Virus record (IMG/VR): IMGVR_UViG_3300045988_116984
Strand: one strand, 5' to 3'
Length of the DNA stretch: 64,000 bases
Origin: a virus
Shown here: in pieces, positions 1,032-57,797 of the stretch
Numbering within the stretch: the first letter of the stretch is position 1
Layout of the letters: the number at the start of each line of letters is the position of its first letter
Position numbers and translations under genes: made by a program
Notes under the pieces: generated by a model
Databases searched by the model: none
What the model was told of the DNA's origin: nothing
The model's input: only the letters and a program-made list of their open reading frames with translations

Positions 1032-3806
1032 TTGTTGATAAATAGACAATTCTATATCTACAAGTTTGAGAGCAAATATCTTGAGAAGAACAAATACAAC
1101 ATAAAGTTAAGTTTCAAGCAAGCCAAAGAGAGCGACCAGATAATTGCCGTATCAGACAGCCAAATGCTTAGAAGCATAAGAGATATACAGCAGAGATACG
1201 TTGATAAATATAAGATTGAGCTTTTGTTTAAGAAACGAGATGATATTAAGAAACTACCATCGTCAAAGGTTAATTCTTCTCTGATAAGAGAGATTAATAA
1301 GCAGATAAACATGATGATGTTTGTCCCTGAATATGTTTCGGTTATTATTTCAAAGCCAGCGCATTATAAGAAGTTGTTCTATAATGGATTGTATATCAAT
1401 GGAAAGAAATATATAAGATTTTCTTGTTCGGCTTCTCAGGCTAGAGTAAATACAATTATCATGGTTCAAGAAGATATATCGGAAGAACTTTATAAAAGAT
1501 TGAACAATGGCAGACACAGCAAGAAGTTGAACCCAAGCAAATTTAATGCTTATCTAGGGCTGAGCAGTTCAGCAACAACACCTGTTAGTACACCAAGGGT
1601 TTGCGTAGTATCAGACTGTTTGATGAAGCGAAATACGCTTGTAAACTACGTTACTGAAGTATACGAACCATTGTGTGACGATATTATAGAGCGCAAGGAA
1701 GTAGAGATAGAATACAATTACTTTGATGGGATGGGATTGATTTCTCCGCAACAAAGTGAAAAGTGGGCACACGAGCTTGAACTGGATTGGATTCCGGCGG
1801 AATGGTGTATCCGAAACGCTTGGATAAAGGGAATGGTTTGTACGTTCCCTATCCAAGAGTTCTGTGAAAAGGTGAATGGTGGAAACTATATGGTCGAAAC
1901 CATTTATAAGAACGAAGATGGAACACCTAAAATGGCCGACTTGAGAAACATTGACGTAATCATCAGTGAATCTCAATTTAAGATGGCTGGATGTTATGAT
2001 AGTTATGAAGAATATGAGCGCAATTGCATAACCAATAAACTTTCGTGGGGAATATCAAAGTATTCTCCGAAACAGGATTCTAATAATCTGTACTTAAACT
2101 ATCAGTCATTACAGACGCTAAAGCTTGATGATGAAGATATTGTCGAGTTGTGTAAGCCTACTGTTGATTGGATTCGCGGCGTAACAAGAGATAATGTGAT
2201 GTATACTTCTCTTTTTCTTATGGGAAAATCGGTTGGTAAGAACGGAGTAGTAAACTTTGTAAATAGCAGTGATAACTACTGGTTAAAGTCGCTACTTGTA
2301 AACCATGACATTATCAAGGATAGATATGTTTCAGATAAGATATATGATAATATCGTAAATAAGATTAAGAGTGCTTGTATGGGTAAGCTCGTTGTTAATG
2401 GGAATTATCAATGTTTGGTATCAGACCCATATGCTATGATGGAACATATTTGCGGACTTGAACCAAATGGTTTGCTAAAGGAGAACGAGTATTATGCTAA
2501 ATACTGGAACGACAGAGGTGTATCTCTTGTTGACAGTATGCGTTCTCCTCTTACATACAGAAGCGAACATAATCTGTTAGATTTAAAAGATAATGAAGTG
2601 CTTAGTCACTGGTACAGATATTTAAACACTGGTATTGTGGTCAATGTTCATGGCGACGATGTTCTCAGATGGGCCGACTCAGATTATGACTTCGATATTC
2701 TTGCCACAACTTCAAATAAAACTATTATCAAGGGAGTATACAAAGATGAGCTTGCGGTAACATACCAAAAGAAAACTACTGATAAGATTGACTTTACACA
2801 AGAAGATTTATACAAAGCAGACCTACTTGCTTTTGGTTCCGATATTGGCGCAATTACAAATAAGAGCACGTCAATGTATGCTATGTTGCCATTATATGAA
2901 CCTGATAGCCCGCAATATAAAGAATTGGAACGTCGTCTTATAATGACACGAGTGGCACAAGGTAACAGCATCGACAAAGCAAAGGGCGTTCAAACAAAGC
3001 CTTTCCCAAAGCATTGGGGTAACTATCAAAGACAGTCAGAAGAAGATACAGATGAAGTAAAACAGAAGAAAGAGTTCTTCAATAGTATATTGGTTGAAAA
3101 GAAACCATACTTCTTTAAATATCTTTATAAGGATAGCAGAGTTGCTTATAATAAGTTTTTGCGAGAAGAAGAATCATATAGACAGATTTATGGAATTGAC
3201 CTTTCTTCTATTCAAAGCAAAGATGAAAGTGAACTTACGGAAAAAGAAAAATATTATCTTGCTTCAATGAATTATAGAAATCCTCTTATTGAGTCTGATT
3301 GTGAAATGAATCGTATTTGTAGATATCTTGAAAGTGTTGATTTTGACATTAAACATCCTAAGGTACATCACGAAGATATTTATAAGCTGTATATGTGTGA
3401 TGGAATTGAAAAGAACATAAATACATATAACTCCGTTAAACGTTCAGTAAAGAGTTTTTTCCAATCTTTAAGAGAAGATGTTTCAATGAGTGATTATTCA
3501 ACGTCTTTGAAATACGTTCCAGACGAAGAACATAAGATTATCAATAAATATGATTTATTCAAAGACACCATGACCGATTTGTGTTCTAATATAAATGAAC
3601 TTGTAAACTATTTAGTTGAAATCTTTTATGTTGATATGAAGTCATGCAATAAGGATATTTTGTGGAAAACGTTTGGAAAGACCATGTTCACGAATGTATA
3701 TAACAAATCTTCAAAGAAAGTCCTTATCCCGCAAATTGAAGATGATGGCGAATACACATATTTGTTTGATAGATACAACGTCTTGGAGGTAGACTTAGTT
3801 GGTTAA
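1032..3806 (+). CDS. YonO-like / cellular-RdRP-like single-subunit RNA polymerase (two-barrel type), putative
   Basis: 924-aa ORF. It has a metal-binding-type DxDxD motif, DYDFD (nt 2682-2696, context WADSDYDFDIL), and an upstream SMRSPLTYRSEH segment like the RxP..hpgD block of QDE-1/YonO-family enzymes. No other polymerase motifs were recognised. GGAGAG RBS upstream. Confidence 0.5.
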   Translation: MLINRQFYIYKFESKYLEKNKYNIKLSFKQAKESDQIIAVSDSQMLRSIRDIQQRYVDKYKIELLFKKRDDIKKLPSSKVNSSLIREINKQINMMMFVPEYVSVIISKPAHYKKLFYNGLYINGKKYIRFSCSASQARVNTIIMVQEDISEELYKRLNNGRHSKKLNPSKFNAYLGLSSSATTPVSTPRVCVVSDCLMKRNTLVNYVTEVYEPLCDDIIERKEVEIEYNYFDGMGLISPQQSEKWAHELELDWIPAEWCIRNAWIKGMVCTFPIQEFCEKVNGGNYMVETIYKNEDGTPKMADLRNIDVIISESQFKMAGCYDSYEEYERNCITNKLSWGISKYSPKQDSNNLYLNYQSLQTLKLDDEDIVELCKPTVDWIRGVTRDNVMYTSLFLMGKSVGKNGVVNFVNSSDNYWLKSLLVNHDIIKDRYVSDKIYDNIVNKIKSACMGKLVVNGNYQCLVSDPYAMMEHICGLEPNGLLKENEYYAKYWNDRGVSLVDSMRSPLTYRSEHNLLDLKDNEVLSHWYRYLNTGIVVNVHGDDVLRWADSDYDFDILATTSNKTIIKGVYKDELAVTYQKKTTDKIDFTQEDLYKADLLAFGSDIGAITNKSTSMYAMLPLYEPDSPQYKELERRLIMTRVAQGNSIDKAKGVQTKPFPKHWGNYQRQSEEDTDEVKQKKEFFNSILVEKKPYFFKYLYKDSRVAYNKFLREEESYRQIYGIDLSSIQSKDESELTEKEKYYLASMNYRNPLIESDCEMNRICRYLESVDFDIKHPKVHHEDIYKLYMCDGIEKNINTYNSVKRSVKSFFQSLREDVSMSDYSTSLKYVPDEEHKIINKYDLFKDTMTDLCSNINELVNYLVEIFYVDMKSCNKDILWKTFGKTMFTNVYNKSSKKVLIPQIEDDGEYTYLFDRYNVLEVDLVG

Positions 3807-4530
3807 TGAGTATAACGAAATATCCTATGCTAAGAAAATGTTAGATTCGGGCTTTCTAACAAACAAGAGAATGTACGAACTTAACATCTTAGCGAAATAT
3901 TTCTTTTATCTTGGTTATAAACCCAAAGAAGTCCAAGAGCGTGTAGTCGATTTTTGTAATAACTACTTTGATAGTTTTAGCGAAGCAAAGTATTTTGACA
4001 AGATTCAGTCTATTTTAAACAACGCTAGAAAAATGCCAATCATTGAGGTTGGCACCATTCAGATAACAGAAAAGGAAGTTGAATTTATAAACTCAATTAA
4101 AGAGCCATTCAAATTCAATGATGTTCTGTTTTGTCTGCTTGTTATAAAGAAGATTAGGGAGAAACTTGGGCAACAGCCATACCTGAACTGTAAATATACC
4201 AAATTCACCAAATCCTGTGGCCTATCCTCCCCAAAGGTTCTCTATCCCCTTCTCCGCCGCTTAGAACAACTCGGCTTTATTCGTGTTTGTCGAAACTCCA
4301 ATCTTGAAATCTTATTCAACGTAGATGCTTCCAACTCTCCAACCGTCATTGAAGTAAACGATTTTGACAACATCTATGCTTACTATCATAACTATCTTGG
4401 TAAGGGGCGATATGTAGAGTGTTCTTCATGCGGTAAAATGGTTCGTGTAAAGGGGAACAGACGTAAATACTGTAATGAATGTGCTAGAATAATTAACATA
4501 CAAAAAACGTTAGAACGTAAAAAGGTTTGA
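3799..4530 (+). CDS. winged-helix-like protein with C-terminal zinc ribbon (possible transcription/DNA-binding factor)
   Basis: TTG start with a GGAGG RBS 8 nt upstream; it overlaps the RNAP stop (TTGGTTAA). LRRLEQLGFIRV is a wHTH-like segment. The C-terminus has CSSCGK...CNEC. Confidence 0.4.
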   Translation: MVNEYNEISYAKKMLDSGFLTNKRMYELNILAKYFFYLGYKPKEVQERVVDFCNNYFDSFSEAKYFDKIQSILNNARKMPIIEVGTIQITEKEVEFINSIKEPFKFNDVLFCLLVIKKIREKLGQQPYLNCKYTKFTKSCGLSSPKVLYPLLRRLEQLGFIRVCRNSNLEILFNVDASNSPTVIEVNDFDNIYAYYHNYLGKGRYVECSSCGKMVRVKGNRRKYCNECARIINIQKTLERKKV

Positions 4531-6707: not shown

Positions 6708-7016
6708 ATGGAAAAGACAATACCAAAGAGCGAGCTTATCAAAGAAGTCGCTCGAAGAACAAAATATCTTAAAACGCCAGTTGGCGAGATTATAAACACT
6801 CTTGAAGAAGTTATGAACGAGACGATAATCAATAATGACGGAACGATTCGATTTAGTTGTTTTGAAATTGGCAACAAGATGATTCCGGCTATGAAAGGCA
6901 TTAACCCAAAGAGCGGCGAGCCTTACGACACAAAGGAACATCTTGTTCCATATGCTAAGATTAGACTTACATTTAAAAGACTTCATAGGGAGCTAACATA
7001 CGACAATGAAAAGTAA
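6708..7016 (+). CDS. HU/IHF-family DNA-binding protein
   Basis: KSELIKEVA..., GINPKSGEPYDTKEHLVPYAKIR matches the HU arm (G.NP.tGe.i.i....vp.fk). About 100 aa. Confidence 0.75.
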   Translation: MEKTIPKSELIKEVARRTKYLKTPVGEIINTLEEVMNETIINNDGTIRFSCFEIGNKMIPAMKGINPKSGEPYDTKEHLVPYAKIRLTFKRLHRELTYDNEK

Positions 7017-17255: not shown

Positions 17256-18431
17256 ATGGCTAACATTAGACAATTCTATGCTTTAAATACTTCCGACAAG
17301 AATTTCTCTATGCTCGATGACGAGCAGAAAGCTCTTGTTGAGGGCGGTTTTAAAGTTGCTAAACAGTACATGGCAGAGCGCATGAAGGATTCCAAGAAGG
17401 ACCTTTTTGCCGCTATCAATGACACCACTATCGACAGCCGCAAGGAACTGAACGATATGGTTGTTGAGAAGATTGCTAAGTATAGTGCGAAACGTGCTGG
17501 CGGTATCAATGTTGAGAATTTTGCTCTGGCGGATGTTGCTAACCCTAACGTACATAACGACCTTATCTTCAAGCGCACGTTTGCCGCTGTTCTGGCGCAG
17601 ATTATGACTCCGGTTGTTCCGGCTATGATTTCCACTTCTTTCATGGACTTCGCTGATGTTGCTAACATCGGTTGGGGCGATACTGCTCGCTTCAAGGTGA
17701 ACTCCAACGATACGTTCTTCGTGACCCGTCTGGCCGAGGGTATTCTCCATGGTTCTGTTCAGAGAACGTACAACAACGAAATCACCGTCAACCCCGAACC
17801 CTACAACATTATGACGGCTGTTGACTGGTATCAGGTTGCTGCTGGTATGTTTGACCTTGGTGAGTTCGTGTACAAAGTTGGTATTTCTTACAATGCTTAC
17901 ATCACCCAGATGGTGATTCAGGCTATCGGTGCCAACATCACTGCCAACGCTGGTACTTCTTACATCGTGAACGGTTTTGCGACTTCTACGTTCGTGAAGC
18001 TGGCTGAAATCCTGCGTGCTGCTAACGGCGGTGCTAAGATTCGTGCTTATGGTACTCTGGCTGCTCTTAGCAACGTGATTCCGTCTGGTACTACGAATGC
18101 TAACCTGCAGATGGGCCTTGGTGAGGAATGGGCGCGTGTTGGCCACTTGGGCACGTTCATGGATGTTGACCTTGTGCGTATTCCGCAGATTCTTCTGCCC
18201 AATACTGTCAATACCACTCCGCTGACTGGCATCCCCGATTCTACAATCTATCTGTTTGCTGATGGTGGTTACAAGCCGGTGAAGCTCGTGTTCGAGGGTA
18301 GCGCTCTGACCACGGACATTGTTCCGACCGAGGCTCCTGACAAGGAAATGGGCATCAGCCTAACGCTTAGAATGGGTACAACGTTTATCGCTGCTTCTAA
18401 GTATGGTGCTATTACGGGCGTTAGCGCGTAA
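17256..18431 (+). CDS. putative major capsid protein
   Basis: 391 aa with a strong RBS and highly biased (GCT/GGT/ACT) codon usage, followed by a strong hairpin terminator. The position is canonical. Confidence 0.6.
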   Translation: MANIRQFYALNTSDKNFSMLDDEQKALVEGGFKVAKQYMAERMKDSKKDLFAAINDTTIDSRKELNDMVVEKIAKYSAKRAGGINVENFALADVANPNVHNDLIFKRTFAAVLAQIMTPVVPAMISTSFMDFADVANIGWGDTARFKVNSNDTFFVTRLAEGILHGSVQRTYNNEITVNPEPYNIMTAVDWYQVAAGMFDLGEFVYKVGISYNAYITQMVIQAIGANITANAGTSYIVNGFATSTFVKLAEILRAANGGAKIRAYGTLAALSNVIPSGTTNANLQMGLGEEWARVGHLGTFMDVDLVRIPQILLPNTVNTTPLTGIPDSTIYLFADGGYKPVKLVFEGSALTTDIVPTEAPDKEMGISLTLRMGTTFIAASKYGAITGVSA

Positions 18432-18446
18432 TTGAGTAATATAATA

Positions 18447-18468
18447 GGGGGACTCTTTTGAGTCCCCC
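18447..18468 (+). terminator. hairpin terminator after capsid gene
   Basis: GGGGGACTC-TTTT-GAGTCCCCC perfect 9-bp stem. The downstream T-tract (ATATATT) is weak. Confidence 0.55.
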
Positions 18469-18509
18469 ATATATTAAATGAGAAAAAGGAATAAAAGGAG
18501 AACAACATT

Positions 18510-19178
18510 ATGCCTGCTACTAAAAAGGCTGTACCGCAGAATAATGATAATGCGGAAGATAAAACTGTTACTTCTGCTTCGTCTGGCATGACAGCAGAAG
18601 ATATGCTTGCTATGATTGCGAATTTAACGGCTCAGATTAATAAGCTCACCGCTCAATCGAACGGGGAGACAATAACGTCTAATAGCGGCGTTTCAAAGAT
18701 GGATAGGCCGTGTACATTGATTCATTTGTGTGAATGTCACCCGTCGTTGCCATCTACGATTAAATTGAACGGCAATGAGATTCGTTTCACAAAATTTGGT
18801 GAACGTAGAACATTCAGATTCGCAGAAATGCAAGATATTACATCCCGTTATAGAGATTGGTTTGAGCGTGGTATCTTTACGTTGGGTAGTGACTGCGACG
18901 ATATGGTAGACGAGTTTGGGCTTGAGATTATGGACGTCCCCATGTCTGCTTCTCAATACGCTCGAATCGCTAACCTGCCTATGGCGGAGTTCAAACGTAT
19001 CGTTGATGGATTATCTTATCCGATGGCGCTCCGTTTGGCACAGACGTGGATTAAACGCTACGAAGCAAAACAGGCGGGATATTCCAATCTTGAAAAAGTC
19101 AAGATTTTAAATAAGAAAACAAAAGGCTTTATGAAACAGTTCATGTCTGACTTGTTAAACGAGGGGACAGAAGAATAA
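18510..19178 (+). CDS. hypothetical head/neck-module protein
   Basis: 222-aa ORF with an AAAGGAG RBS. No motif recognised. Confidence 0.4.
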   Translation: MPATKKAVPQNNDNAEDKTVTSASSGMTAEDMLAMIANLTAQINKLTAQSNGETITSNSGVSKMDRPCTLIHLCECHPSLPSTIKLNGNEIRFTKFGERRTFRFAEMQDITSRYRDWFERGIFTLGSDCDDMVDEFGLEIMDVPMSASQYARIANLPMAEFKRIVDGLSYPMALRLAQTWIKRYEAKQAGYSNLEKVKILNKKTKGFMKQFMSDLLNEGTEE

Positions 19179-19190
19179 GGGGGAAAGTTT

Positions 19191-19901
19191 GTGGCCGGGA
19201 CATCTTATTTTACTGTATACAAAAGGGCCATAACAGAGTTCAAAGACCCTACTCTAAAAAATCTTTTAGAAAATGACACTGTTATGTTCAGCCAAGTTAT
19301 GTATAATTTCTTGGAGAATGCGATTTCTCTTTTCACAAATCCAATTCCGGCGCAAAAACGTGTGAACGACAGGGTTCCTCCTAAATTTTATTCTCAAACC
19401 TTTATAGGTGACGGGAGTAATAAGCAATTTGCATTAACTGACGCGCCCGATGCTTCTTTGATTGATGATTGTCTTTTTGAATATACTGTTGACGGCAACA
19501 AAGTAAAAGGCGTATATACTGCTGTTGCTGGTGGAGAAGTTGGAAAAGCAATTGTTGGCAAAACTCATACTGAGGGAACGCCAACAGTAACGCTTGACCC
19601 TGCTCCATTTGATGGAGCTGAGGTTGTGGTCAATATTTATTATGTTGGCAACTGGAATATCAATCTTTATCCTATGGAAGAATATATTCTCTCCGAGTTT
19701 ATTATGGCGGCTTGGTCGGAATACATTCAAAATGATAAGCTTGATATTGTCAGGTTGCTTGGTGATACCGACTTTAAACTTACGTCAGTATCTTCGGCAA
19801 CAACTTCAAAATCAAGTTGGTATATTGTGAATAGAGAGACTGTTACTAAGCGTATGACAAAATATGCATGGGATGCGGCTATTCAGAGGTTATACCCATG
19901 A
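19191..19901 (+). CDS. hypothetical head-tail connector-region protein
   Basis: GTG start with a GGGGGAAAG RBS. Contains one VGKAIVGK motif. Confidence 0.4.
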   Translation: MAGTSYFTVYKRAITEFKDPTLKNLLENDTVMFSQVMYNFLENAISLFTNPIPAQKRVNDRVPPKFYSQTFIGDGSNKQFALTDAPDASLIDDCLFEYTVDGNKVKGVYTAVAGGEVGKAIVGKTHTEGTPTVTLDPAPFDGAEVVVNIYYVGNWNINLYPMEEYILSEFIMAAWSEYIQNDKLDIVRLLGDTDFKLTSVSSATTSKSSWYIVNRETVTKRMTKYAWDAAIQRLYP

Positions 19902-37787: not shown

Positions 37788-38261
37788 GTGAGAGCCTTTA
37801 AAATATTCGCTACTCCTAAACGTGTTTTTAAGATAGTGGCTGATACATTTCTAAGACTGGCAACTTTAATCTTTAATAATACAAACACAATTGAACTTAT
37901 TGGATTAATCATGGCGCATTTGAAATCGAACGTGACTTTAAAAATACAGTCATTGTTTACAATAACAGATACTCGTATGAAGCTTCATATGATAATGAGC
38001 AATATAGTCGCCCCGATAAGATTTAGAATTTTGGCTATACCAAAATCCATAGAGAGTGAAAAAATACTTATAATTGTAGCTACTAATATTATAGCACAAT
38101 CGCTTGGACTTGTCAAGTTAGACTTTAATTCGTCAAGTACGGTTAAAATAATAGCGTCCGCATTAGTTGGAAGATTTAGACTTCTTGGCGAATTAGACCC
38201 GCTAACTTTGGGCGAAATAGACAATGACACTCTTGGAACGTTAGATTTCAAAACACAATAA
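37788..38261 (+). CDS. hypothetical protein
   Basis: GTG start after GGCGGGG. 157 aa and it fills the gap. Confidence 0.3.
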   Translation: MRAFKIFATPKRVFKIVADTFLRLATLIFNNTNTIELIGLIMAHLKSNVTLKIQSLFTITDTRMKLHMIMSNIVAPIRFRILAIPKSIESEKILIIVATNIIAQSLGLVKLDFNSSSTVKIIASALVGRFRLLGELDPLTLGEIDNDTLGTLDFKTQ

Positions 38262-50144: not shown

Positions 50145-50622
50145 TATATGATTTCCTAAATAAATGTGTTAAATCTTCAAATTCTTTATTTTTTATATGA
50201 TAGAATTTTTGATTTGTTTTCCCCGAATCGAGTCCACCATACTCTTTAATATAAGGGCCAATCTTCAAATAATCAATAATATTGTCGTTAATTAAATCTG
50301 CGAAAGAAGTTATGCTTTGTAGTCCACTATAAATACATGTTTTTAGATTCGGATATTTTTCTTTGATTGACTTTATAAATAGATAAAGTTCTTCTATATT
50401 TTGGTCGCCGCCCATAAAACAAACACATGTAATAAATGTATTATATCTATCAATTATTTTTAAATAATCCTCTTTTACATATTTACCAACATAATCCCAT
50501 AGATATTTAGAGTGGCAACCCTCACATTTGTGAGGGCAACCACTAATATTGAACACAAGAGTTGTTTCGTTCGGTACTTCTTGGAACACTATATCATAAG
50601 AACAATATTTTAGATTAAGCAT
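50137..50622 (-). CDS. nrdG: anaerobic ribonucleotide reductase activating protein (radical SAM)
   Basis: CPHKCEGC radical-SAM CxxxCxxC cluster near the N-terminus. The ATG at 50622 overlaps the nrdD stop (ATGCTTAA). Confidence 0.8.
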   Translation of the reverse strand: MLNLKYCSYDIVFQEVPNETTLVFNISGCPHKCEGCHSKYLWDYVGKYVKEDYLKIIDRYNTFITCVCFMGGDQNIEELYLFIKSIKEKYPNLKTCIYSGLQSITSFADLINDNIIDYLKIGPYIKEYGGLDSGKTNQKFYHIKNKEFEDLTHLFRKSYNA

Positions 50623-51061
50623 AATATCTATCACGTTCTTCTTTTTGACGCGCCTCAGAGAAGTTTGATACACGTTTCAAATACCCAATTACTCTAGTGG
50701 CATAATCAAGATTTTCGCTTCCGCATTTTGGACATTTATTTAAACGATGTTTACTAATATGGCCACATTCGTTACAGATTGTATTTGGAACATTGAATGT
50801 AAAATACGAACATCCTGTTGACATTGCGGTATCGAGCAAATGTTTATACTGTTCTTTTGTAAGGTGTTCGTTCAGATTGGCATGAAGGGCGCTACCACCA
50901 TCAAGATATTTTGTTAGCTTTTCTCCATGTAATATAAACTTATCAATAAGATTTACACTATCATCTTCCACACGATAGAAATAACTATTATAACACTCTC
51001 TTGGTACATATAGCCCATCTTTTTTATCCCAGCCTGAATTTTTAACGCCTAGATTTTCCGC
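50615..51061 (-). CDS. nrdD: anaerobic (class III) ribonucleotide reductase, exon 2
   Basis: It begins AENLGVKN, completing the conserved ..vPAE.lgvk block. It has the Zn-ribbon CNECGH...CPKCG and the glycyl-radical motif TRVIGYL. Confidence 0.8.
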   Translation of the reverse strand, partial: AENLGVKNSGWDKKDGLYVPRECYNSYFYRVEDDSVNLIDKFILHGEKLTKYLDGGSALHANLNEHLTKEQYKHLLDTAMSTGCSYFTFNVPNTICNECGHISKHRLNKCPKCGSENLDYATRVIGYLKRVSNFSEARQKEERDRYYA

Positions 51062-51952
51062 CATTCTGTTGCTTTTATGACCTACATCAATTCTTTTTCA
51101 GCATTAGTACGTGCTTCTAATGCTAACTCATAAGTTTCAAACGTACCTAAGTAGTGCGTTTTATAATTTTTTGTGATTGTGACTTGATATTTACCAGAAG
51201 GAACTCTTTTTATCCCTTTTCTATCAATTGATTGGTTCCTAATGTTATCAGAATGTTCTATTACCCTAAGATTATTTTTACGGTTATCCATTCCGTTTCT
51301 ATTTATATGGTCTATATCTTTGTCACCATAATAATTAAGAATAAATCTATGTAAGAACGTTTGTTTTCCATTTATATTAGTCATAGCATAATTTGTATTT
51401 TTGCTTCTTTTTATGTGCCATTTACGCTCTAAGCAACGTTGTAAATCATCTGTGTCTATTATAGCTCTGCCAATCTCTTTACAATTCTTATCATTAATTA
51501 TAATTTCTGAATAATCATCAAATATAATATAATCGTTTTTATCATAAATGGTTTTATCTAAGAAGCCGCCATGTCTATATAATTGTGTTATATGGCGAGT
51601 ACATAAGTTCATGCCCCTAATCGTTCTTATGCGTTTCTTATCGCTTGTTATTCCACATACGTCACACTCTATAATTTATACTCCTTTCTATATTTTAATA
51701 GCACGTTTTATGATGTAGGCGGTGATGGTTCTTCCAAGAGTGTCTTTACACTCGACCATCACTCACTATGTTACCATAGTGTTCAGACTATCGCACCAGC
51801 ACCTAAGTGCTGCTTCTTCATTTAGTCGTTCACGCTGCCATTACGCTTGCGCCCTGTTATCCAACTGTAAAGACAATTGGAACTCCAAGTCAATTAGAAG
51901 AAGTTTTTATATGACAGTTTATGTATTATGCTGCCAAGTGCCCACTCATTTT
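51062..51952 (-). mobile_element. group I intron in nrdD carrying an HNH homing-endonuclease ORF
   Basis: It splits the conserved FVP|AENLG block. Exon 1 ends in U (..GTGCCT) and the intron ends in G (..CAGAATG). The intron contains GCGATAGTCTGAAC, a J8/7-P7-like core, and many hairpins. Confidence 0.7.
51082..51612 (-). CDS. HNH homing endonuclease with AP2-like DNA-binding domain (intron-encoded)
   Basis: HRFILNYYGDKDIDHINRNGMDNRKNNLRVIEHSDN is the HNH motif. The C-terminal KRVPSGKYQVTITKNYKTHYLGTFETYELALEAR is AP2-like. Confidence 0.8.
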   Translation of the reverse strand: MNLCTRHITQLYRHGGFLDKTIYDKNDYIIFDDYSEIIINDKNCKEIGRAIIDTDDLQRCLERKWHIKRSKNTNYAMTNINGKQTFLHRFILNYYGDKDIDHINRNGMDNRKNNLRVIEHSDNIRNQSIDRKGIKRVPSGKYQVTITKNYKTHYLGTFETYELALEARTNAEKELM

Positions 51953-53356
51953 AGGCACAAATTCGGTATTAAACATTATTTCGGATGTTCTGTCTCTTTT
52001 GTTTATAGTATAAATAGGTTTAAGAATAGCTTCTCCATATTTGAAATATTCTTCATTTACAGTAGGTTGAATCCCTAAAAATTCTGCTCCCTCTACAAAT
52101 CCATTAATTCCAATAGTAAGATACTGTTTTTCCATCGAAATATATCCGGCATCATATACTGGAAGCATATGGTTTTTGAGGTTGTCTTTTACAATTTCGT
52201 TATACGAAATCATATATTTATGAATTTTTTCTACCTGTTCAGCTACTCTTTCACTAATATCTTCAAGCGTAATTTTGCCTTTTTCTTTTGCTAAATTTTG
52301 AATAAGTCTATTGAGGTTGATGGTCATAACGCCTTTACTGCCTGTACTTATTCCACCAGCACCAAGCGTGTATGAAAACGTGTTCTCTGTCACTTCGTTC
52401 TTTAAACGACAGCACGATGCTAATGCGTCAACACTATTACTCGTATAGCAGAAAAATGAATGTCCTTCGCTCCACATTTCGGCCGTGAAATCATACCATT
52501 CTTTATCTACATATTCTGTGCCATTATTGAGCAGATTGACAGTTTCAACTGGGAATGTAAGAATTTTCTTCAATCGCTCAGCGTTAAACCATTTCATAAA
52601 CTTCTTTTGAAGCCAATTTACGCTTTCCCAGATTGGAGAAGAACCATCAGGGAATACAAACTCACTAAACATCCCATCGAAGTATGGTTTATCAAAATAA
52701 GCTATATTCCAGAATACTGACTGAAAGTTTCTGGCACCAGCAGGGTCGTTTATTGTATAGACAACTTGTTGAAATTTGTTTTCAATAAGATTTTCTAGAG
52801 ACTTTGGCTCTTTACCAAGAATAACATTATCAGAAACATGTTTATAGTAGTCGTCACCAAAATCCTTCCTGATAAAGTAATCCATATACATAAGGAACTC
52901 TGGTGTGGCAACTGCTCCAGCGAATTGTGAAGCAACAGCGTATACAAGATTAACGAAACTTCCGCAGAATGAATCAAGATGTTTCGGAGCTTCTGAATTT
53001 CCTCCGATATTTGTTGTGCCACTGAACAAGAATGGATACATTGTTATGCTTACACAATAAGGCAACATGGGATTCGTTTCGTCATGCCTATAAATCTCGT
53101 GCGAATCTAGTTGACGAATGTATTCTTCAGCCAGTTCTTCTCCATAAAGCTCCGTAATCTTATTAATCATAAGAAGCCGGTTTGTGCCAATTGCTTCTTT
53201 TTTATACATTTCGCCGGTACAAGTCGTTACGTTTTTATGCTCTACATTAGCATTGGAATCAACTTCGCTTCCGCTTGAAGCATTTACTGCTTTACGATAT
53301 CTGTCGATGAAATTAAGGTATTTTGTGTATTGATTCTTATACTTCTCTATTCCCAT
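51953..53356 (-). CDS. nrdD: anaerobic (class III) ribonucleotide reductase, exon 1
   Basis: 468 codons ending ...EIMFNTEFVP. The in-frame read-through (KMSGHLAA then stop) is intron sequence. Confidence 0.8.
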
Positions 53357-53359
53357 TTG

Positions 53360-53566
53360 TTAATCCCCCATGCTATTTATTAAATTATAAGCATCCCGAA
53401 AGTTGTACAGTTTTCCATCAACTGATAACATCGGCATACTTGTAAAACCGAGCTTAATCATTTCATTTTCATCTGTAAAAATATCATAATCGACGTTTTT
53501 TGACCTCAATATTTTTTCAAGTATAATACACTGTGGACAATGATTAGAATATAAAATTACTTTCAT
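53360..53566 (-). CDS. nrdH: NrdH/glutaredoxin-like redoxin
   Basis: MKVILYSNHCPQCIILEKIL... has a CPQC active site. GGAGA RBS before the ATG at 53566. Confidence 0.7.
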   Translation of the reverse strand: MKVILYSNHCPQCIILEKILRSKNVDYDIFTDENEMIKLGFTSMPMLSVDGKLYNFRDAYNLINSMGD

Positions 53567-53579
53567 AGCTTCTCCAATA

Positions 53580-54029
53580 TTAGTTTGTTTCATCGGAATA
53601 TACAACAACGCCGTTTACAGTATATGTGCTTGTTTTTTCTACGCACAAATTATACATAACTTCCACTACATTTTCCGAAACACTTACGCTAACTATATTA
53701 CTATAACTAGACAAATCATCTTCTTTTCTATTAGCCAGCAATATATGATGGTTAAACGTTATATTTCTTGCTTCAACCCATCCAGCCTCGAATGTAAAGA
53801 ATTTGTGCTCCGGAGCACAAATAATTGGTTCATCAATTCCGTTTACTGTAAAAACAAGGATATGTCCACTGTATATATGGCTAACGACATTATTTACTCG
53901 ATTGTATGTTAAGTCGTGCGACAAAACCATGTCACCGACTTTTATATCTTCAATGTTATGTATTCCACGGTTTGTAATAACTTTATGCCCAGCCATGAAA
54001 CAGTCGGAACTACAACTGCTCAATAACAT
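53580..54029 (-). CDS. free-standing degenerate Hint (intein-like) domain protein
   Basis: MLLSSCSSD is followed by CFMAGHKVITNRG..IEDIKVGDMVLSHD (block A/N2-like), ICAPEHKF (block B-like) and VMYNLCVEKTSTYTVNGVVVYS (block F/G-like). The terminal His-Asn is replaced by Tyr-Ser, and no C-extein follows. Confidence 0.6.
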   Translation of the reverse strand: MLLSSCSSDCFMAGHKVITNRGIHNIEDIKVGDMVLSHDLTYNRVNNVVSHIYSGHILVFTVNGIDEPIICAPEHKFFTFEAGWVEARNITFNHHILLANRKEDDLSSYSNIVSVSVSENVVEVMYNLCVEKTSTYTVNGVVVYSDETN

Positions 54030-54037
54030 TACCACCT

Positions 54038-54708: not shown

Positions 54709-54867
54709 TTAAATATCACCTATAAATAATCTATCTACATTTCCGCAATCACTACAAGTCACGACAACACAGTTTTCATCGGCGTCGTATTCAAGCTCGT
54801 ACTTGTCTGAATCGCACATTTTACAATAAATTTCAAAATCAAACGTTTCATTCTCGAAAGTCAACAT
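54709..54867 (-). CDS. small zinc-ribbon protein (52 aa), first gene of the leftward early operon
   Basis: Below the ORF-track cutoff. AAGGTGGTG RBS. Translation is MLTFENETFDFEIYCKMCDSDKYELEYDADENCVVVTCSDCGNVDRLFIGDI (CxxC...CxxC). Confidence 0.55.
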   Translation of the reverse strand: MLTFENETFDFEIYCKMCDSDKYELEYDADENCVVVTCSDCGNVDRLFIGDI

Positions 54868-54896
54868 TTTCACCACCTTTGAGGGAAAGTAATCAT

Positions 54897-54925
54897 ATTA
54901 TACCACAAAATTGTTTATTTGTCAA
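54897..54925 (-). promoter_or_regulatory. leftward sigma-A-type promoter PL1
   Basis: On the minus strand: TTGACA, a 17-nt spacer ending TGTGG (extended -10 TGn), then TATAAT. Confidence 0.75.
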
Positions 54926-55021
54926 TACCATAATTGTGAAAGATTTGTAAACAAATTGTGAACAACTATACATATTTTTCATATTCTCAGCCTTGAAGAA
55001 GTAATTTATTGCTATGTTTGT

Positions 55022-55050
55022 ATTATAACATATCTTGCTGTAAAAGTCAA
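55022..55050 (-). promoter_or_regulatory. leftward sigma-A-type promoter PL2
   Basis: On the minus strand: TTGACT, 17 nt, then TATAAT (ttgacttttacagcaagatatgttataat). Confidence 0.7.
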
Positions 55051-55092
55051 TACCTTAATTGTAAATAAATTATTAACAAATTACTGCAATAT

Positions 55093-55668
55093 TATTATAA
55101 GCTTATAGATTTATACGCTTGTATTACAAGCTAGTCTATAATATAGGCTTATATACTAGCTTATATTTCTATACGCTTATCTACACGTTTATAAAACTAT
55201 ACGCTTGTAATATAATATATATTATATAAACAAAAAAACTAAATATTATATTAAAACGGTAGTTACTACTTTGAGCGTATAGAAAAGCTTATAGTATGAC
55301 AAGCTTATATACAAGCTTATAGATTTATACGCTTATAATACTAACTTATAAATCTATAAGCGTATATTACTAGCTTGTAGTATTATAAGCTAGTAATATA
55401 TATTATTATATATAAATATATAATTATAAGCTTATATTATATACTAGTTTGTAATATAAGCTTATAATACTACAAGCTAGTTACATGATTGTCATACTAT
55501 AAGCTTTTCTATACGCTCAAAGTAGTAACATCTTTTTAAATATTATATTATTTTTTTGTTTATATAATATATATTATACTACAAGCTTGTAGTATTATTA
55601 GCTTATATATAAGCTTATATTATAGACTAGCTTATAATACAAGCGTATAAATCTATAAGCTTATATTA
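55093..55668. repeat. ~600-bp imperfect composite palindrome built from AGCT-core dyad boxes (candidate origin / centromere-like / regulator array)
   Basis: Outer arms 55093-55155 and 55604-55668 match as inverted repeats apart from 2-3 mismatches. The 40-nt arms 55263-55302 and 55489-55528 are identical inverted repeats, as are the 22-nt arms 55368-55389 and 55461-55482. The region holds 10 AAGCTT cores plus about 9 one-off variants and has no ORF. Confidence 0.85.
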
Positions 55669-55739
55669 CAAGCATATAGCATTACAGGCTTGTAACTGTA
55701 TTACAGTAGTTTGTTCACAAATTATTTACAATTGAGGTA

Positions 55740-55768
55740 TTGACTTCTTCTCGGCAATGTGGTATAAT
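55740..55768 (+). promoter_or_regulatory. rightward sigma-A-type promoter PR1
   Basis: TTGACT, a 17-nt spacer ending TGTGG, then TATAAT. Confidence 0.75.
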
Positions 55769-55888
55769 AGCATCGTTGATTGAGTTTGTGATTGTGATTA
55801 TTGTGATTGTTAGTGCGTTTTGTGTAATTTTAGTGTATTTTTTATATGTGGTGCTTGTTTTGTTCATAAATTGTTTACAATTAGGGTA

Positions 55889-55917
55889 TTGACAAATTGA
55901 TTGAAGTGTGGTATAAT
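55889..55917 (+). promoter_or_regulatory. rightward sigma-A-type promoter PR2
   Basis: TTGACA, a 17-nt spacer ending TGTGG, then TATAAT. It lies about 50 nt upstream of the 55967 ORF. Confidence 0.8.
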
Positions 55918-55966: not shown

Positions 55967-56419
55967 ATGGCAGTAGAATACATCATTAACGAAGAAAAGC
56001 GTACTGTTGTTGCTATGCTTAAAGGCACAGAACTTGACGCTCATAAAGCAATTATGCGGCAAGTTGGAGACGCTGAGGAAAGCTTTTTCGGATTTAACAG
56101 CAATTGGACTACGTTGATTCCTGATTCTTTCACAGGTAAAGCAAAATGCGACCCGCGTGACGAATTTAGTCTTGACGAGGGAAAGAAAATCGCAAAAGCT
56201 CGTTGTATGGAAAAGTATTACAGGGCGAAAGACGCGGCAATTAAAACGTGGTATAAGAATGCTCGTGTAAAGATGGGGCGAGTAGAAAAGCTTGTTCGTG
56301 ACATTGACACGGCTAGACTGTTCAAGGAAAGAAAACAAAAAGAGGAAGCATTGAACAAATATAGAACAGCATTAGAGGCTGTTGAAGAAGCTAGAGCCGA
56401 ACTTGAAAAAGTTATGTGA
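55967..56419 (+). CDS. hypothetical early protein (first gene of the rightward operon)
   Basis: TAGGAG RBS. 150 aa with a ...GKAKCDPRDEFSLDEGKKIAKAR... block and a C-terminal coiled coil. Confidence 0.5.
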   Translation: MAVEYIINEEKRTVVAMLKGTELDAHKAIMRQVGDAEESFFGFNSNWTTLIPDSFTGKAKCDPRDEFSLDEGKKIAKARCMEKYYRAKDAAIKTWYKNARVKMGRVEKLVRDIDTARLFKERKQKEEALNKYRTALEAVEEARAELEKVM

Positions 56420-56466: not shown

Positions 56467-56820
56467 ATGGCAGTTGGATTTAGCTTTCAAAAAGCAAAAC
56501 GAGAGAAAATTTGGGTAAAACTTCTGCTTAATGGCCCGTCAGGTAGCGGCAAAACGTATACAGCATTGCGTCTAGCTACTGGTATGTTGAGCAAGGTTGG
56601 CGGAGCTGGTATTGCCGCTATTGACACGGAGAATGGACGTATTCGTTATTATGCGAATGAATTTGACTTCTTCGACTTACAGCTTGGCGAACCATATACG
56701 TCTGAATCGTATATCGAAGCAATCAATGCGGCAGTTGACAATGGATTTAAAGTGCTTATCATTGATAGTTTGAGCCATGAATGGAAATGGTTGAATGAAG
56801 TACATGATAAGATGCCCGGT
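56467..56820 (+). CDS. Sak4-like / AAA_24-type RecA-fold ATPase, exon 1
   Basis: Walker A NGPSGSGKTY and Walker B LIIDSLSHEW. The ORF-track product ends in the intron-derived residues CNVA then stop. Confidence 0.7.
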
Positions 56821-57224
56821 TGTAATGTGGCGTAAACACATTCACGGCCCGCTATATTGGTAACAATATGGTGTTTCCTCACGAATATGCTGGAACGCCC
56901 TTAGAGTTCACATGCTAAAGAGGAATCTTGAGATAGATAAACTTAAATGCTATAAAAAGTTGTGAAATTGGGAAATCAGCAGGGAATGGATATAACAGTC
57001 CTGCCCTCAACGACTATGGTGTTGGAACCAGTAGAATTAAGCGATTCAAAATGTGAGGACTCCTTATGAGTAAAAACAATTTAACTTCTATGACAAAAGA
57101 CGAAGTTCAAGAAGTTATTATCTCATTAGGATGAAGATATAGTCTGCACTTACGCGAAAGCGTGAGAAAAGCATATAAACTATGCTCTTTATAGAAATAG
57201 CGAATCTATAAAGTAACACAATGG
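56821..57224 (+). mobile_element. ORF-less group I intron
   Basis: It separates two halves of one ATPase gene. It contains GATGAAGATATAGTCTGCAC (the AAGATATAGTC J8/7-P7 consensus), a GAAA-capped hairpin CTTACGC-GAAA-GCGTGAG, and several further hairpins. The proposed 5' splice site follows U56820, which pairs as GGUUG/CGGCC with G-U. The intron ends in G57224. The boundaries are inferred. Confidence 0.65.
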
Positions 57225-57797
57225 AACTCATTTACGAACTGGGGCAAGCTTAAACCGCGTCATGCGGCTTTGATGGAAAAAATTCTTCAGTCACCAATTC
57301 ATATTATTGCTACTGCTCGTGGTAAAGATGATTATGTGATGGAAGATAAGAACGGTAAACAGATTCCTAAAAAGGTTGGTGTAGGTTCACAGCAAGAGAA
57401 AGATATCGAATACAACTACACTGTAACGTTTAATATCGACCAAGAAACGCATGTGGCATCAGTGGCAAAGGATAATACACATCTTTTTGAGGGACGATAT
57501 GATAAACTCACGGAAAAAGATGGTTCTAATCTGATTGATTGGGCAACTTCTGGCGAGGGAGAAATGCCGACAGAACCTGTTTCAAAGCCTACATTTGCAG
57601 CACCGAGCGATTCTAATGATTTGGATAGCAAGGTTATTGAGTGTAAGGATTTGTTCGCTTCTAGAATGGATGAGGGTATCTCAAAGGATTTCTTGTATGA
57701 CATTGTAAAGAAGCACAATGCTGGCAATAAAAACTTCATGCAGATTAAAGATATTGAAGTATTGAATACTATTATTAAGGAAATTAAAGAGGTTTAA
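57225..57797 (+). CDS. Sak4-like / AAA_24-type ATPase, exon 2
   Basis: The frame is open from 57201. NSFTNWGKLKPRHAALMEKILQSPIHIIATARGKD continues the family pattern (..W.kl.....l...l....hvI.tah.k). Confidence 0.7.
   Translation, partial: NSFTNWGKLKPRHAALMEKILQSPIHIIATARGKDDYVMEDKNGKQIPKKVGVGSQQEKDIEYNYTVTFNIDQETHVASVAKDNTHLFEGRYDKLTEKDGSNLIDWATSGEGEMPTEPVSKPTFAAPSDSNDLDSKVIECKDLFASRMDEGISKDFLYDIVKKHNAGNKNFMQIKDIEVLNTIIKEIKEV

What the first reader, a model, noticed from the sequence alone, without database searches (positions are those of the whole stretch)
55093..55668. ~600-bp composite palindrome made of AGCT-core dyad boxes between divergent early operons
Seen:
- The non-coding region is a nested, imperfect palindrome.
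- Outer arms 55093-55155 and 55604-55668 differ at 2-3 positions. The 40-nt arms 55263-55302 and 55489-55528 are identical, as are the 22-nt arms 55368-55389 and 55461-55482.
- The nested arm pairs do not share one centre (about 55380, 55395 and 55425).
- One ~14-nt block (TAAATATTATATTA) is in direct rather than inverted orientation inside otherwise inverted arms.
- The arms are built from short, self-complementary boxes of the type TATAAGCTTATA, ACAAGCTTGT and ACTAGCTTAT. I count 10 AAGCTT cores and about 9 single-mismatch variants. TATACGCTT / AAGCGTATA units are interspersed.

Inference: this is a dense array of sites for a dimeric DNA-binding protein that is also able to extrude a large cruciform. 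It sits next to the replication genes. Candidate roles are a replication origin, a centromere-like partition site of a plasmid-prophage, or a master operator array.

I do not recognise this architecture from any characterised phage ori, parS or tel site.
Basis: partly seen in the sequence, partly recalled or inferred. Interest (0 to 1): 0.8.

Follow-up and report, generated by a model that had tools for sequence, protein, structure and literature searches.

The report
Dyad-box arrays at phage promoter hubs
The ~600-bp palindrome is real, but it is one of three arrays, together about 100 copies of a 12-bp two-fold-symmetric box, that fill the untranscribed gaps behind the strongest early promoters of a ~117-kb SPbeta-like gut phage. 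They look like landing pads for a still unidentified dimeric DNA-binding protein rather than a unique replication origin.

Summary
**Observation:** confirmed. Window 55096-55694 holds 29-34 copies of the box TAYAAGCTTRTA. Spacing alternates 16 and 12-13 bp. The boxes form four clusters separated by pure A/T spacers, and two consensus sigma-70-type promoters point outwards on each side. The whole stretch folds on itself as a near end-to-end palindrome.

**New findings:**
- The same genome type (~116-118 kb, YonO-like RNA polymerase, Pol III alpha, HU-like protein) carries two more arrays of the same box just outside the window (A2, A3). Each sits directly upstream of the same promoter module.
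- Related lineages have arrays at the same places but with other boxes (TATAAATTTATA/TATACGCTTGTATA, or TATACACGTGTATA), while their flanks are 95-100% identical.
- All arrays found on one contig share one box family.
- More distant relatives have a single palindrome at these sites, or nothing.

**Box anatomy:** the two half-sites vary independently and show no compensatory changes. That fits a dimeric protein site and does not fit selection for a hairpin.

**Binder:** no protein that covaries with box type was found. Four candidates were tested and rejected.

**Verdict:**
- Most likely these are protein-binding platforms that control the early-promoter hubs (confidence 0.4).
- A replication origin at A1 remains possible (0.2).
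- The function is inferred, not shown.

The parts
55096..55694 (.). Array A1: 29 boxes (up to 2 mismatches) or 34 boxes (up to 3 mismatches) of the 12-bp dyad box TAYAAGCTTRTA. Start-to-start spacing alternates 16 and 12-13 bp, giving a 28-29-bp double unit.
55096..55209 (.). Box cluster 1 (8 boxes)
55210..55281 (.). A/T-rich spacer with an A-tract and TAAATATTATATTA. It ends in the 11-bp dyad GTAGTTACTAC (55259-55269).
55282..55395 (.). Box cluster 2 (8 boxes). The preceding 40-nt module 55263-55302 is repeated, inverted and identical, at 55489-55528.
55396..55424 (.). Central pure A/T spacer
55425..55509 (.). Box cluster 3 (5 boxes)
55510..55579 (.). A/T-rich spacer with a T-tract. It is the inverted partner of 55210-55281, except that TAAATATTATATTA is kept in direct orientation.
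55580..55694 (.). Box cluster 4 (8 boxes)
55022..55079 (-). Inner leftward promoter (TTGACT-17-TATAAT with TG) plus the conserved upstream module TTGTTAATAATTTATTTACAATTAAGGTA. The first box starts 45 nt from the -35 hexamer.
54897..54957 (-). Outer leftward promoter (TTGACA-17-TGGTATAAT, 12 of 12 consensus positions) with a copy of the upstream module
55711..55768 (+). Inner rightward promoter (TTGACT-17-TGGTATAAT) with the upstream module. The last box ends 45 nt before the -35 hexamer.
55860..55917 (+). Outer rightward promoter (TTGACA-17-TGGTATAAT, 12 of 12 consensus positions) with the upstream module
54709..54876 (-). First gene of the leftward early operon: a 55-aa zinc-ribbon-like protein, followed by dUTPase, glutaredoxin, NrdD and NrdG
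55967..56419 (+). First gene of the rightward replication operon (p150, unknown function). It is 98-100% identical between lineages whose arrays differ.

Best explanation
**What it is**

The region is one of three cis-acting arrays (A1 in the window, A2 and A3 just upstream of window position 1). Together they hold about 100 copies per genome of a 12-bp inverted-repeat box with half-site TAYAMG. Each array fills the untranscribed DNA directly behind an early-promoter hub of a ~117-kb SPbeta-like phage.

**Proposed mechanism (inferred)**
1. A dimeric, sequence-specific DNA-binding protein occupies the boxes cooperatively. Neighbouring boxes abut or lie 4 bp apart.
2. This builds a nucleoprotein filament on the 0.45-0.9 kb between or behind the promoters.
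3. The filament sets the activity of the hub promoters. Most likely it shuts off or times early transcription by the host polymerase before the phage's own YonO-like polymerase takes over.
4. The large number of sites would make occupancy depend on protein dose and on genome copy number.
5. The protein is most likely phage-encoded, but it was not identified.

**Shown versus inferred**
- Shown: the anatomy, the three arrays, their fixed position next to one promoter module, the same box family in all arrays of a contig, the different box families between lineages, and the independent variation of the half-sites.
- Inferred: that a protein binds, and that the result is promoter control.
For: - **Box anatomy fits a symmetric dimer site, not a hairpin.** A2 and T11 are invariant in 98 of 98 boxes and G6C7 is kept in 87 of 98. 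The spacers are uninformative. Positions 3 and 10 vary independently (Fisher p = 0.39). C5 and G8 variants are never compensated. Only 20 of 98 boxes are perfect palindromes.
- **The arrays go with promoter hubs, not with replication genes.**
  - A2 and A3 carry 27 and about 42-50 boxes of the same family.
  - At A1 and A2 the array starts about 45 nt from the -35 hexamers, just beyond the conserved upstream module.
  - In relatives, A3 is followed by the same module and a consensus promoter.
  - Strong promoters inside the operons (for example 59042) have neither the module nor boxes.
- **One box family per contig.**
  - Contig 117014 has A1 and A2 of type A.
  - Contig 121887 has A2 and A3 of type A.
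  - Contig 141839 has A3 and part of A2 of type B.
  - Six window-type contigs have A2 and A3 of the window type.
- **Sharp type switches.** Genomes with 95-100% identical flanks carry different box families with sharp borders. At A3 the boxes differ on both sides of a conserved central hairpin.
- **A precedent in the same phage group.** SPbeta's master repressor MrpR binds the repeated element SPBRE in about ten early-gene promoter regions (PMC10516654).
Against: - **No protein covaries with box type.** This held across A1-6 kb to A1+36 kb and across A2 to A2+13 kb. Four specific candidates failed:
  - p150;
  - the C-terminal tail of p243;
  - the two small proteins encoded just after A3.
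- **The boxes do not overlap the -35 or -10 elements.** Simple steric repression is therefore excluded, and spreading, looping or a change in DNA topology would be needed.
- **Some relatives carry mixed box kinds in one array** (L093, L094).
- **Differences between window-type contigs avoid the six best-conserved box positions only weakly.** 13 were observed against about 19 expected (p = 0.07). The alignments contain gaps.
- **The arrays are not needed for the basic programme of the wider family.** They are absent or reduced to one palindrome in more distant relatives with the same gene order.
Confidence: 0.4

Rival explanations
1. Replication origin. A1 alone, or all three arrays, would be iteron-type origins. 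An initiator binds the boxes, the pure A/T spacers melt, and the primase-helicase encoded 3.4 kb downstream is loaded. Negative supercoiling from the divergent promoters would help.
For: - A1 lies at the head of the replication operon: AAA_24 ATPase, PD-(D/E)XK nuclease, primase-helicase and Pol III alpha.
- Repeated dyad boxes plus 29-72-bp pure A/T spacers with A-tracts resemble iterons next to an unwinding element.
- A1 is the most complete single-centre palindrome of the three arrays in the window lineage and in the type A lineage.
- From my own knowledge: origins between divergent promoters are known, for example HSV oriL and oriS and lactococcal phage c2.
Against: - There are three arrays. 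Two of them lie tens of kilobases along the genome from the replication genes, next to a RecU-like gene and small early genes.
- The adjacent p150 is identical between genomes whose boxes differ.
- A relative with the same replication module (66% primase identity) has no repeats at either hub. Another (63%) has one palindrome at each hub.
- GC skew follows gene orientation only, so it is uninformative.
Confidence: 0.2
2. Structure-driven or largely neutral palindromic satellite. A/T-rich dyad repeats expand by slippage and unequal exchange in the only untranscribed DNA of the genome, and gene conversion makes the hubs alike. Any function would come from DNA mechanics: flexible TA steps bound by the phage HU-like protein, or cruciforms that absorb transcription-driven supercoils or give a break that starts recombination-dependent replication.
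For: - No specificity protein was found.
- Box families turn over quickly, copy number varies (34-42 boxes in A3) and mixed arrays exist.
- The shared ~40-nt promoter modules at the array edges could serve as conversion arms.
- TA steps recur at 8 and 10 bp in all box types.
- The phage HU-like protein is identical in the type A and type B contigs compared.
- All arrays are strongly self-complementary, with z from -9 to -35.
- Depletion of substitutions at the key box positions is not significant.
Against: - Box positions are far better conserved than the 4-nt spacers inside the same repeat units. Amplification alone does not predict this.
- There is no compensatory change at symmetric positions, so the pairing needed for cruciforms is not what is being kept.
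- A 12-bp box gives a stem of only 4-5 A/T pairs.
- About 2 kb of repeats is kept in a very common phage. The neighbouring gene is indexed in 409 blocks of the assembly collection.
Confidence: 0.2
3. Centromere-like partition sites of a plasmid prophage. Repeat arrays in promoter regions would be bound by a centromere-binding protein that also represses transcription, as with omega/parS of pSM19035 or ParR/parC of R1.
For: Three arrays of short, closely packed repeats in promoter regions resemble the three omega-binding heptad arrays of pSM19035 (from my own knowledge).
Against: - No ParA, ParM or TubZ-type NTPase appears in the precomputed Pfam tables or in my scans of the regions seen. About 30 kb of the early arm was never annotated.
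- No integrase or plasmid-maintenance gene was seen.
- No relative of the phage's RNA polymerase, and no array of the box (only two isolated single matches), was found in 185,579 species-representative bacterial genomes.
Confidence: 0.05

Closest known systems
SPBRE elements bound by the master repressor MrpR (YopR) of Bacillus phage SPbeta (PMC10516654)
   Same: A repeated element sits in the promoter regions of early genes of a phage with a YonO-type RNA polymerase, Pol III alpha and an HU-like protein. In SPbeta it is read by one phage protein that controls the early programme.
   Different: SPBRE is one 15-bp motif in each of about ten promoter regions. Here there are 27-50 abutting dyad boxes in each of three arrays, placed upstream of the promoters. 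No MrpR-like protein was found in the parts annotated, and there is no sign of lysogeny.
Omega protein and its heptad arrays (parS1-3) of plasmid pSM19035; ParR/parC of plasmid R1; MetJ met-boxes (from my own knowledge)
   Same: Contiguous short repeats in direct and inverted orientation lie in promoter regions. Small dimeric ribbon-helix-helix proteins bind them cooperatively. pSM19035 has three arrays per replicon.
   Different: Those arrays hold 2-10 units of 7-11 bp and lie next to the gene of their binding protein and a partition NTPase. Here the units are 12 bp, number about 100 per genome, and have no neighbouring cognate gene.
Iteron-type phage origins (lambda ori with O protein; SPP1 oriL and oriR with G38P) and the palindromic HSV oriL and oriS between divergent promoters (from my own knowledge)
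   Same: Repeated initiator sites with dyad symmetry lie beside an A/T-rich stretch. The site is next to replication genes, and in HSV it sits between divergent promoters and is an unstable long palindrome.
   Different: Lambda-type origins lie inside, and co-evolve with, the initiator gene. Here the neighbouring gene does not follow box type, there are three arrays, and relatives with the same replication genes lack them.
TF1 of Bacillus phage SPO1 and p6 of phi29 (architectural proteins that coat DNA near early promoters; from my own knowledge)
   Same: An abundant phage DNA-binding protein (TF1 belongs to the HU family, and this phage encodes an HU-like protein at 6708-7016) binds arrays of flexible sites near early promoters. 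It represses early transcription and helps replication.
   Different: TF1 and p6 read DNA flexibility rather than a sharply defined box. Here six positions of a 12-bp box are nearly invariant.

Membership tests
Iteron-type replication origin | Cluster of repeated binding sites next to an A/T-rich unwinding stretch | tested here: met
   29-34 boxes and three pure A/T spacers of 29-72 bp. This is anatomy only.
Iteron-type replication origin | Cognate initiator encoded at or beside the origin and changing with the iterons | tested here: not met
   p150 and all genes from A1-6 kb to A1+36 kb show no allele specific to the box type.
Iteron-type replication origin | Kept in relatives that share the replication module | tested here: not met
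   L112 (66% primase identity) has no repeats at this site. L111 (63%) has one 25-bp-arm palindrome in a TA-rich spacer.
Iteron-type replication origin | Replication starts there | not testable with these tools
   This needs marker-frequency data or replication assays. GC skew only follows gene orientation.
Partition centromere (parC or parS type) | Partition NTPase and centromere-binding protein operon | tested here: inconclusive
   None appears in the Pfam tables or scans of the regions seen. About 30 kb of the early arm was never annotated.
Partition centromere (parC or parS type) | Element maintained as a plasmid or prophage | tested here: not met
   No relative and no array in 185,579 species-representative genomes. 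The long contigs seen end in phage genes, not host genes.
SPbeta-type SPBRE/MrpR operator system | Repeated element in the promoter regions of early genes | tested here: met
   All three arrays adjoin early promoters.
SPbeta-type SPBRE/MrpR operator system | Single 15-bp motif per promoter, bound by a tyrosine-recombinase-like repressor | tested here: not met
   The arrays hold 27-50 copies of a 12-bp box. No recombinase-like protein appears in the annotated parts. Motif sequences were not compared, because the SPBRE sequence was not retrieved.
Cruciform-forming long palindrome kept for its structure | Long-range two-fold symmetry about one centre | tested here: met
   In the window copy, 71% of predicted pairs share one centre and z = -25 to -35.
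Cruciform-forming long palindrome kept for its structure | Symmetry conserved in sister arrays and relatives, with compensatory changes | tested here: not met
   The share of pairs about one centre ranges from 9% to 78% across ten arrays. Symmetric box positions do not covary.
Tandem operator array of a cooperative dimeric repressor (MetJ, omega or ParR style) | Abutting short dyad boxes with independently degenerate half-sites | tested here: met
   Spacing is 12-13 or 16 bp, and the half-site spectrum is TATAAG 67, TACAAG 32, TATACG 21, TACTAG 14.
Tandem operator array of a cooperative dimeric repressor (MetJ, omega or ParR style) | Identified cognate DNA-binding protein | tested here: not met
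   Four candidates were rejected and none was found.

The most novel reading that the evidence does not exclude
All early-promoter hubs of a widespread ~117-kb gut phage carry a fast-evolving, genome-wide 'box code': about 100 dyad sites in three arrays, switched together between otherwise near-identical genomes. An unknown protein would read this code. The arrays would work as a dose- and copy-number-sensing switch for the hand-over from the host RNA polymerase to the phage polymerase. Alternatively they would be a set of interchangeable origins whose specificity defines compatibility groups between co-infecting phages.
Probability: 0.25. Interest if true: 0.75.

Novelty: new variant of a known kind. 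Interest (0 to 1): 0.55.

Why it matters
- **Scale.** If a protein reads these boxes, this would be an unusually large and rapidly diversifying operator system. It sits in a common but uncultured group of human-gut phages that carry a single-subunit YonO-like RNA polymerase.
- **Type switching.** All arrays on one contig share a box family, and near-identical genomes carry different families. This pattern resembles immunity or incompatibility types and could govern how related phages interact in one cell.
- **Assembly.** The arrays are the points where short-read assemblies of these phages break. That explains the many contigs of about 55-75 kb that are really parts of ~117-kb genomes.
- **Experiments.** The result gives three defined DNA baits for finding the binding protein.

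Tried and rejected
**Similarity and database searches**
1. DNA similarity to deposited phages: no match in either near or distant mode.
2. Known RNA families in 49-64 kb: only a group I intron outside the array.
3. Prophage or host copies in GTDB genomes: none, apart from two isolated single matches.

**Candidates for the protein that reads the boxes**
4. p150 (55967): 98-100% identical across box types.
5. The C-terminal tail of p243.
   - It looked promising: 87 of the 119 differences between a type A and a type B contig over 13 kb fall there.
   - But the other tail class occurs together with window-type boxes in L104.
   - The p243 model is confident (pLDDT 90.5) but has only weak winged-helix similarities, E >= 0.16.
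6. The two small proteins encoded just after A3: L098 combines a type A array with the type B proteins.
7. Window-by-window search for type-B-specific alleles over about 36 kb after A1 and 13 kb after A2. Only the arrays, the p243 tail region and a variable stretch in a tRNA cluster stood out.
8. Pfam scan of small early proteins for HTH or RHH domains: nothing significant.

**Other readings of the array**
9. The dyad GTAGTTACTAC as a deeper conserved operator: found only in the window lineage.
10. Promoters inside the array: none beyond chance.
11. Restriction-site avoidance or decoy idea: AAGCTT is not depleted elsewhere in the window (37 copies seen, about 21 expected from base composition by my own estimate; count).
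12. Test for constraint using differences between window-type contigs: not significant, p = 0.07.
13. Literature searches for a description of such arrays or of these phages: nothing found.

Full report
**1.

- The non-coding stretch between the 55-aa gene (54709-54876, minus strand) and the 150-aa gene (55967-56419, plus strand) was read directly.
- The stated arms are present.
  - The 40-nt arms are identical.
  - The 22-nt arms differ at one base.
  - The outer arms differ at three bases, and one arm is 2 nt longer.
  - TAAATATTATATTA occurs twice in direct orientation.
- A scan with TAYAAGCTTRTA and up to two mismatches places 29 of its 56 window hits in 55096-55694.
- The 28-nt double box matches 18 times, against none in 100 shuffles.
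- The boxes form four clusters of 8, 8, 5 and 8, separated by A/T-only spacers.
- Start-to-start spacing alternates 16 and 12-13 bp.
- As single-stranded DNA the region folds almost end to end at -175.9 kcal/mol, z = -25.
- On each side, two outward-facing promoters match TTGACA-17-TGnTATAAT at 11-12 of 12 positions. Each is preceded by a conserved ~34-nt module. The first and last boxes lie 45 nt from the inner -35 hexamers.

**2. What the genome is**

- Left of the array, on the minus strand: dUTPase, glutaredoxin, an anaerobic ribonucleotide reductase and its activase.
- Right of the array, on the plus strand: an AAA_24 ATPase, a PD-(D/E)XK nuclease, a primase-helicase and a Pol III alpha polymerase.
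- The window also encodes a YonO-like two-barrel RNA polymerase (Pfam RdRP, E 1e-11), an HU-like protein and YonG-like structural proteins.
- Independent assemblies that carry the same proteins are 115-118 kb long.
- There is no DNA match among deposited phages.
- No relative was found in 185,579 species-representative bacterial genomes.
- So this is an uncultured, common, SPbeta-like phage of the human gut. I saw no sign of lysogeny.

**3. It is one of three arrays**

- A 97% relative carries a second array of the same boxes upstream of the polymerase gene. It is again flanked by divergent consensus promoters with the same upstream module.
- Contigs that carry a guanylate kinase identical to the window's show two further arrays.

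| Array | Boxes | Position relative to window position 1 |
|---|---|---|
| A2 | 26-31 | about 0.8-1.2 kb upstream |
| A3 | 34-42 (up to 2 mismatches), up to 50 (up to 3) | about 7.2-8.1 kb upstream |

- In a relative, A3 lies about 6.5 kb left of A2 and is followed by the same module and promoter.
- That gives about 100 boxes per genome, with the same 16 / 12-13 bp rhythm.
- Strong promoters inside the operons have neither boxes nor the module.
- No further array was seen in the other 63 kb of the window, nor in about 36 kb following A1 in relatives.
- Many assemblies end exactly at A1, A2 or A3.

**4. Relatives: same places, different boxes**

- In a sister clade (69% primase identity) the three sites hold arrays of other boxes.

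| Type | Boxes |
|---|---|
| A | TATAAATTTATA, TATACGCTTGTATA, TTAACACTTGTATA |
| B | TATACACGTGTATA and variants |

- Type A and type B genomes are 95-100% identical on both sides of A1, while the ~600 bp of the array drop to 50-70% identity.
- At A3 the boxes differ on both sides of a conserved central hairpin.
- Wherever two arrays lie on one contig they are of the same type: 117014 (A, A), 121887 (A, A), 141839 (B, B), and six window-type contigs.
- Some contigs carry mixed arrays.
- Further out the arrays shrink or vanish.
  - A phage with 57% polymerase identity has a few GTAACAAGTACTTGTTAC boxes.
  - One with 63% primase identity has a single ~25-bp-arm palindrome in a TA-rich spacer at both hubs.
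  - One with 66% primase identity has nothing at either hub.
- So the hub layout is old, and the large arrays are a later elaboration.

**5. Protein site or DNA structure?**

- I examined 98 boxes (up to two mismatches) from A1, A2 and A3 of the window type.
  - A2 and T11 never vary, and G6C7 is kept in 87 boxes. The 4-nt spacers are uninformative.
  - Symmetric positions vary independently: for positions 3 and 10 the counts are T-A 37, T-G 18, C-A 22, C-G 16 (p = 0.39).
  - The common C5 and G8 variants are never matched by the complementary change.
  - Only 20 boxes are perfect palindromes.
- This is what two independently degenerate half-sites of a symmetric dimer look like. It is not what selection for intrastrand pairing looks like.
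- Single-centre palindromy is strong in the window's A1 (71% of pairs) but ranges from 9% to 78% across ten arrays. It looks like the trace of recent inverted duplications.
- One test is weak. Differences between window-type contigs avoid the six key box positions only slightly (13 against about 19 expected, p = 0.07), and the alignments have gaps.

**6. The search for the binder failed**

- No type-B-specific allele exists from 6 kb left of A1 to about 36 kb right of it, or in the 13 kb after A2.
- p150 is identical across types.
- The C-terminal tail of p243 looked promising.
  - p243 is a confidently modelled protein with a zinc ribbon and weak winged-helix similarity, and its gene overlaps the end of the polymerase gene.
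  - Its tail differs between one type A and one type B contig and accounts for 87 of their 119 differences.
  - Tails fall into two classes that recombine freely, and the second class occurs with window-type boxes.
- The two small proteins encoded after A3 also fail. One contig has a type A array together with the type B proteins.
- About 12 kb of the early arm and the late genes were not compared between types.

**7. Weighing the explanations**

- I favour a cooperative protein-binding platform that controls the hubs, at 0.4. Four lines support it:
  - the shape of the boxes;
  - their exclusive association with one promoter module at three sites;
  - the same box type in all arrays of a contig;
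  - the SPbeta precedent, where MrpR binds SPBRE in about ten early promoter regions.
- The missing binder, and the 45-nt gap between the boxes and the promoters, keep this modest.
- An origin at A1 stays possible at 0.2, given its neighbours and its A/T spacers. The three copies, the unchanged neighbouring gene and the relatives without arrays speak against it.
- A structural or largely neutral satellite, possibly read by the unchanged HU-like protein through flexible TA steps, gets 0.2.
- A centromere gets 0.05.
- None of these can be settled without experiments.

Noticed in passing
window 1032-3806 (+): A 924-aa protein hits Pfam RdRP PF05183 (E 1e-11). It is a YonO-like or crAss-like two-barrel single-subunit RNA polymerase. 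In some relatives the gene is split by an insertion that can carry an HNH gene (L104, L106).
   Followed up: partly
window 3799-4530 (+): p243 overlaps the end of the polymerase gene. The AlphaFold model is confident (pLDDT 90.5) and has a zinc ribbon plus a C-terminal basic helix. It shows only weak winged-helix similarity to solved structures (E >= 0.16). The C-terminal ~25 residues come in two classes that are swapped between otherwise near-identical genomes.
   Followed up: yes
window 6708-7016 (+): HU/IHF-family protein (Bac_DNA_binding, E 6e-10). It is conserved across the wider phage family and identical in the type A and type B contigs compared. It may correspond to SPbeta YonN or SPO1 TF1.
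   Followed up: partly
window 56812-57166 (+): A group I intron (Rfam RF00028, 59.5 bits) splits the AAA_24 ATPase gene into 56467-56835 and 57270-57797. The gene is not interrupted by this ~430-nt gap in L005 or L111.
   Followed up: yes
window 50615-54035 (-): The anaerobic ribonucleotide reductase gene is broken up. NrdD pieces lie at 51926-53356 and 50615-51064, with an HNH-like ORF (51082-51612) between them. A Hint/intein-like ORF lies at 53580-54035. A relative (L072) has one 984-aa NrdD with an intein.
   Followed up: no
window 55769-55860 (+); also L066 8140-8290 (-): G/U-rich leaders of about 100 nt with GAUUGUGAUU-like repeats lie between the two tandem hub promoters. They would be transcribed from the inner promoter. 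No Rfam match. This may be a small early RNA.
   Followed up: no
L066 5773-7011; L060 7000-9000; L019 1-600 (outside the window, just left of A2): An island of 56-62% G+C in a ~36% G+C phage encodes a GmrSD_N/DUF262 protein (ParB-like nuclease superfamily). It is present in all lineages examined, including the 45% p243 relative.
   Followed up: no
L060 1627-2742; L064 6787-7902: An IS200/IS605-type TnpB-like gene, followed by a likely guide-RNA region, is inserted directly left of array A3 in two sister-clade contigs.
   Followed up: no
L008 230-1800: In one relative, a ~1.6-kb insertion with an HNH-type ORF sits between the A1 hub promoters and the p150 start codon.
   Followed up: no
IMG/VR and ENA contigs (L001, L002, L006, L012 at A1; L021, L023, L029, L030 at A2; L086, L089, L090, L096, L099 at A3): Short-read assemblies of these phages end at the arrays. 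Many 'genomes' of 54-75 kb in public virus collections therefore appear to be fragments of ~117-kb genomes.
   Followed up: partly
window 59042 (+) and 38116 (-); L071 15131, 21114, 21589: Further perfect extended -10 promoters lie inside operons. They lack the hub upstream module and the boxes. The one at 38116 points against the late genes.
   Followed up: no
L077 about 18400-19300: The early arm of the sister clade carries tRNA genes. Their neighbourhood is variable between contigs.
   Followed up: no
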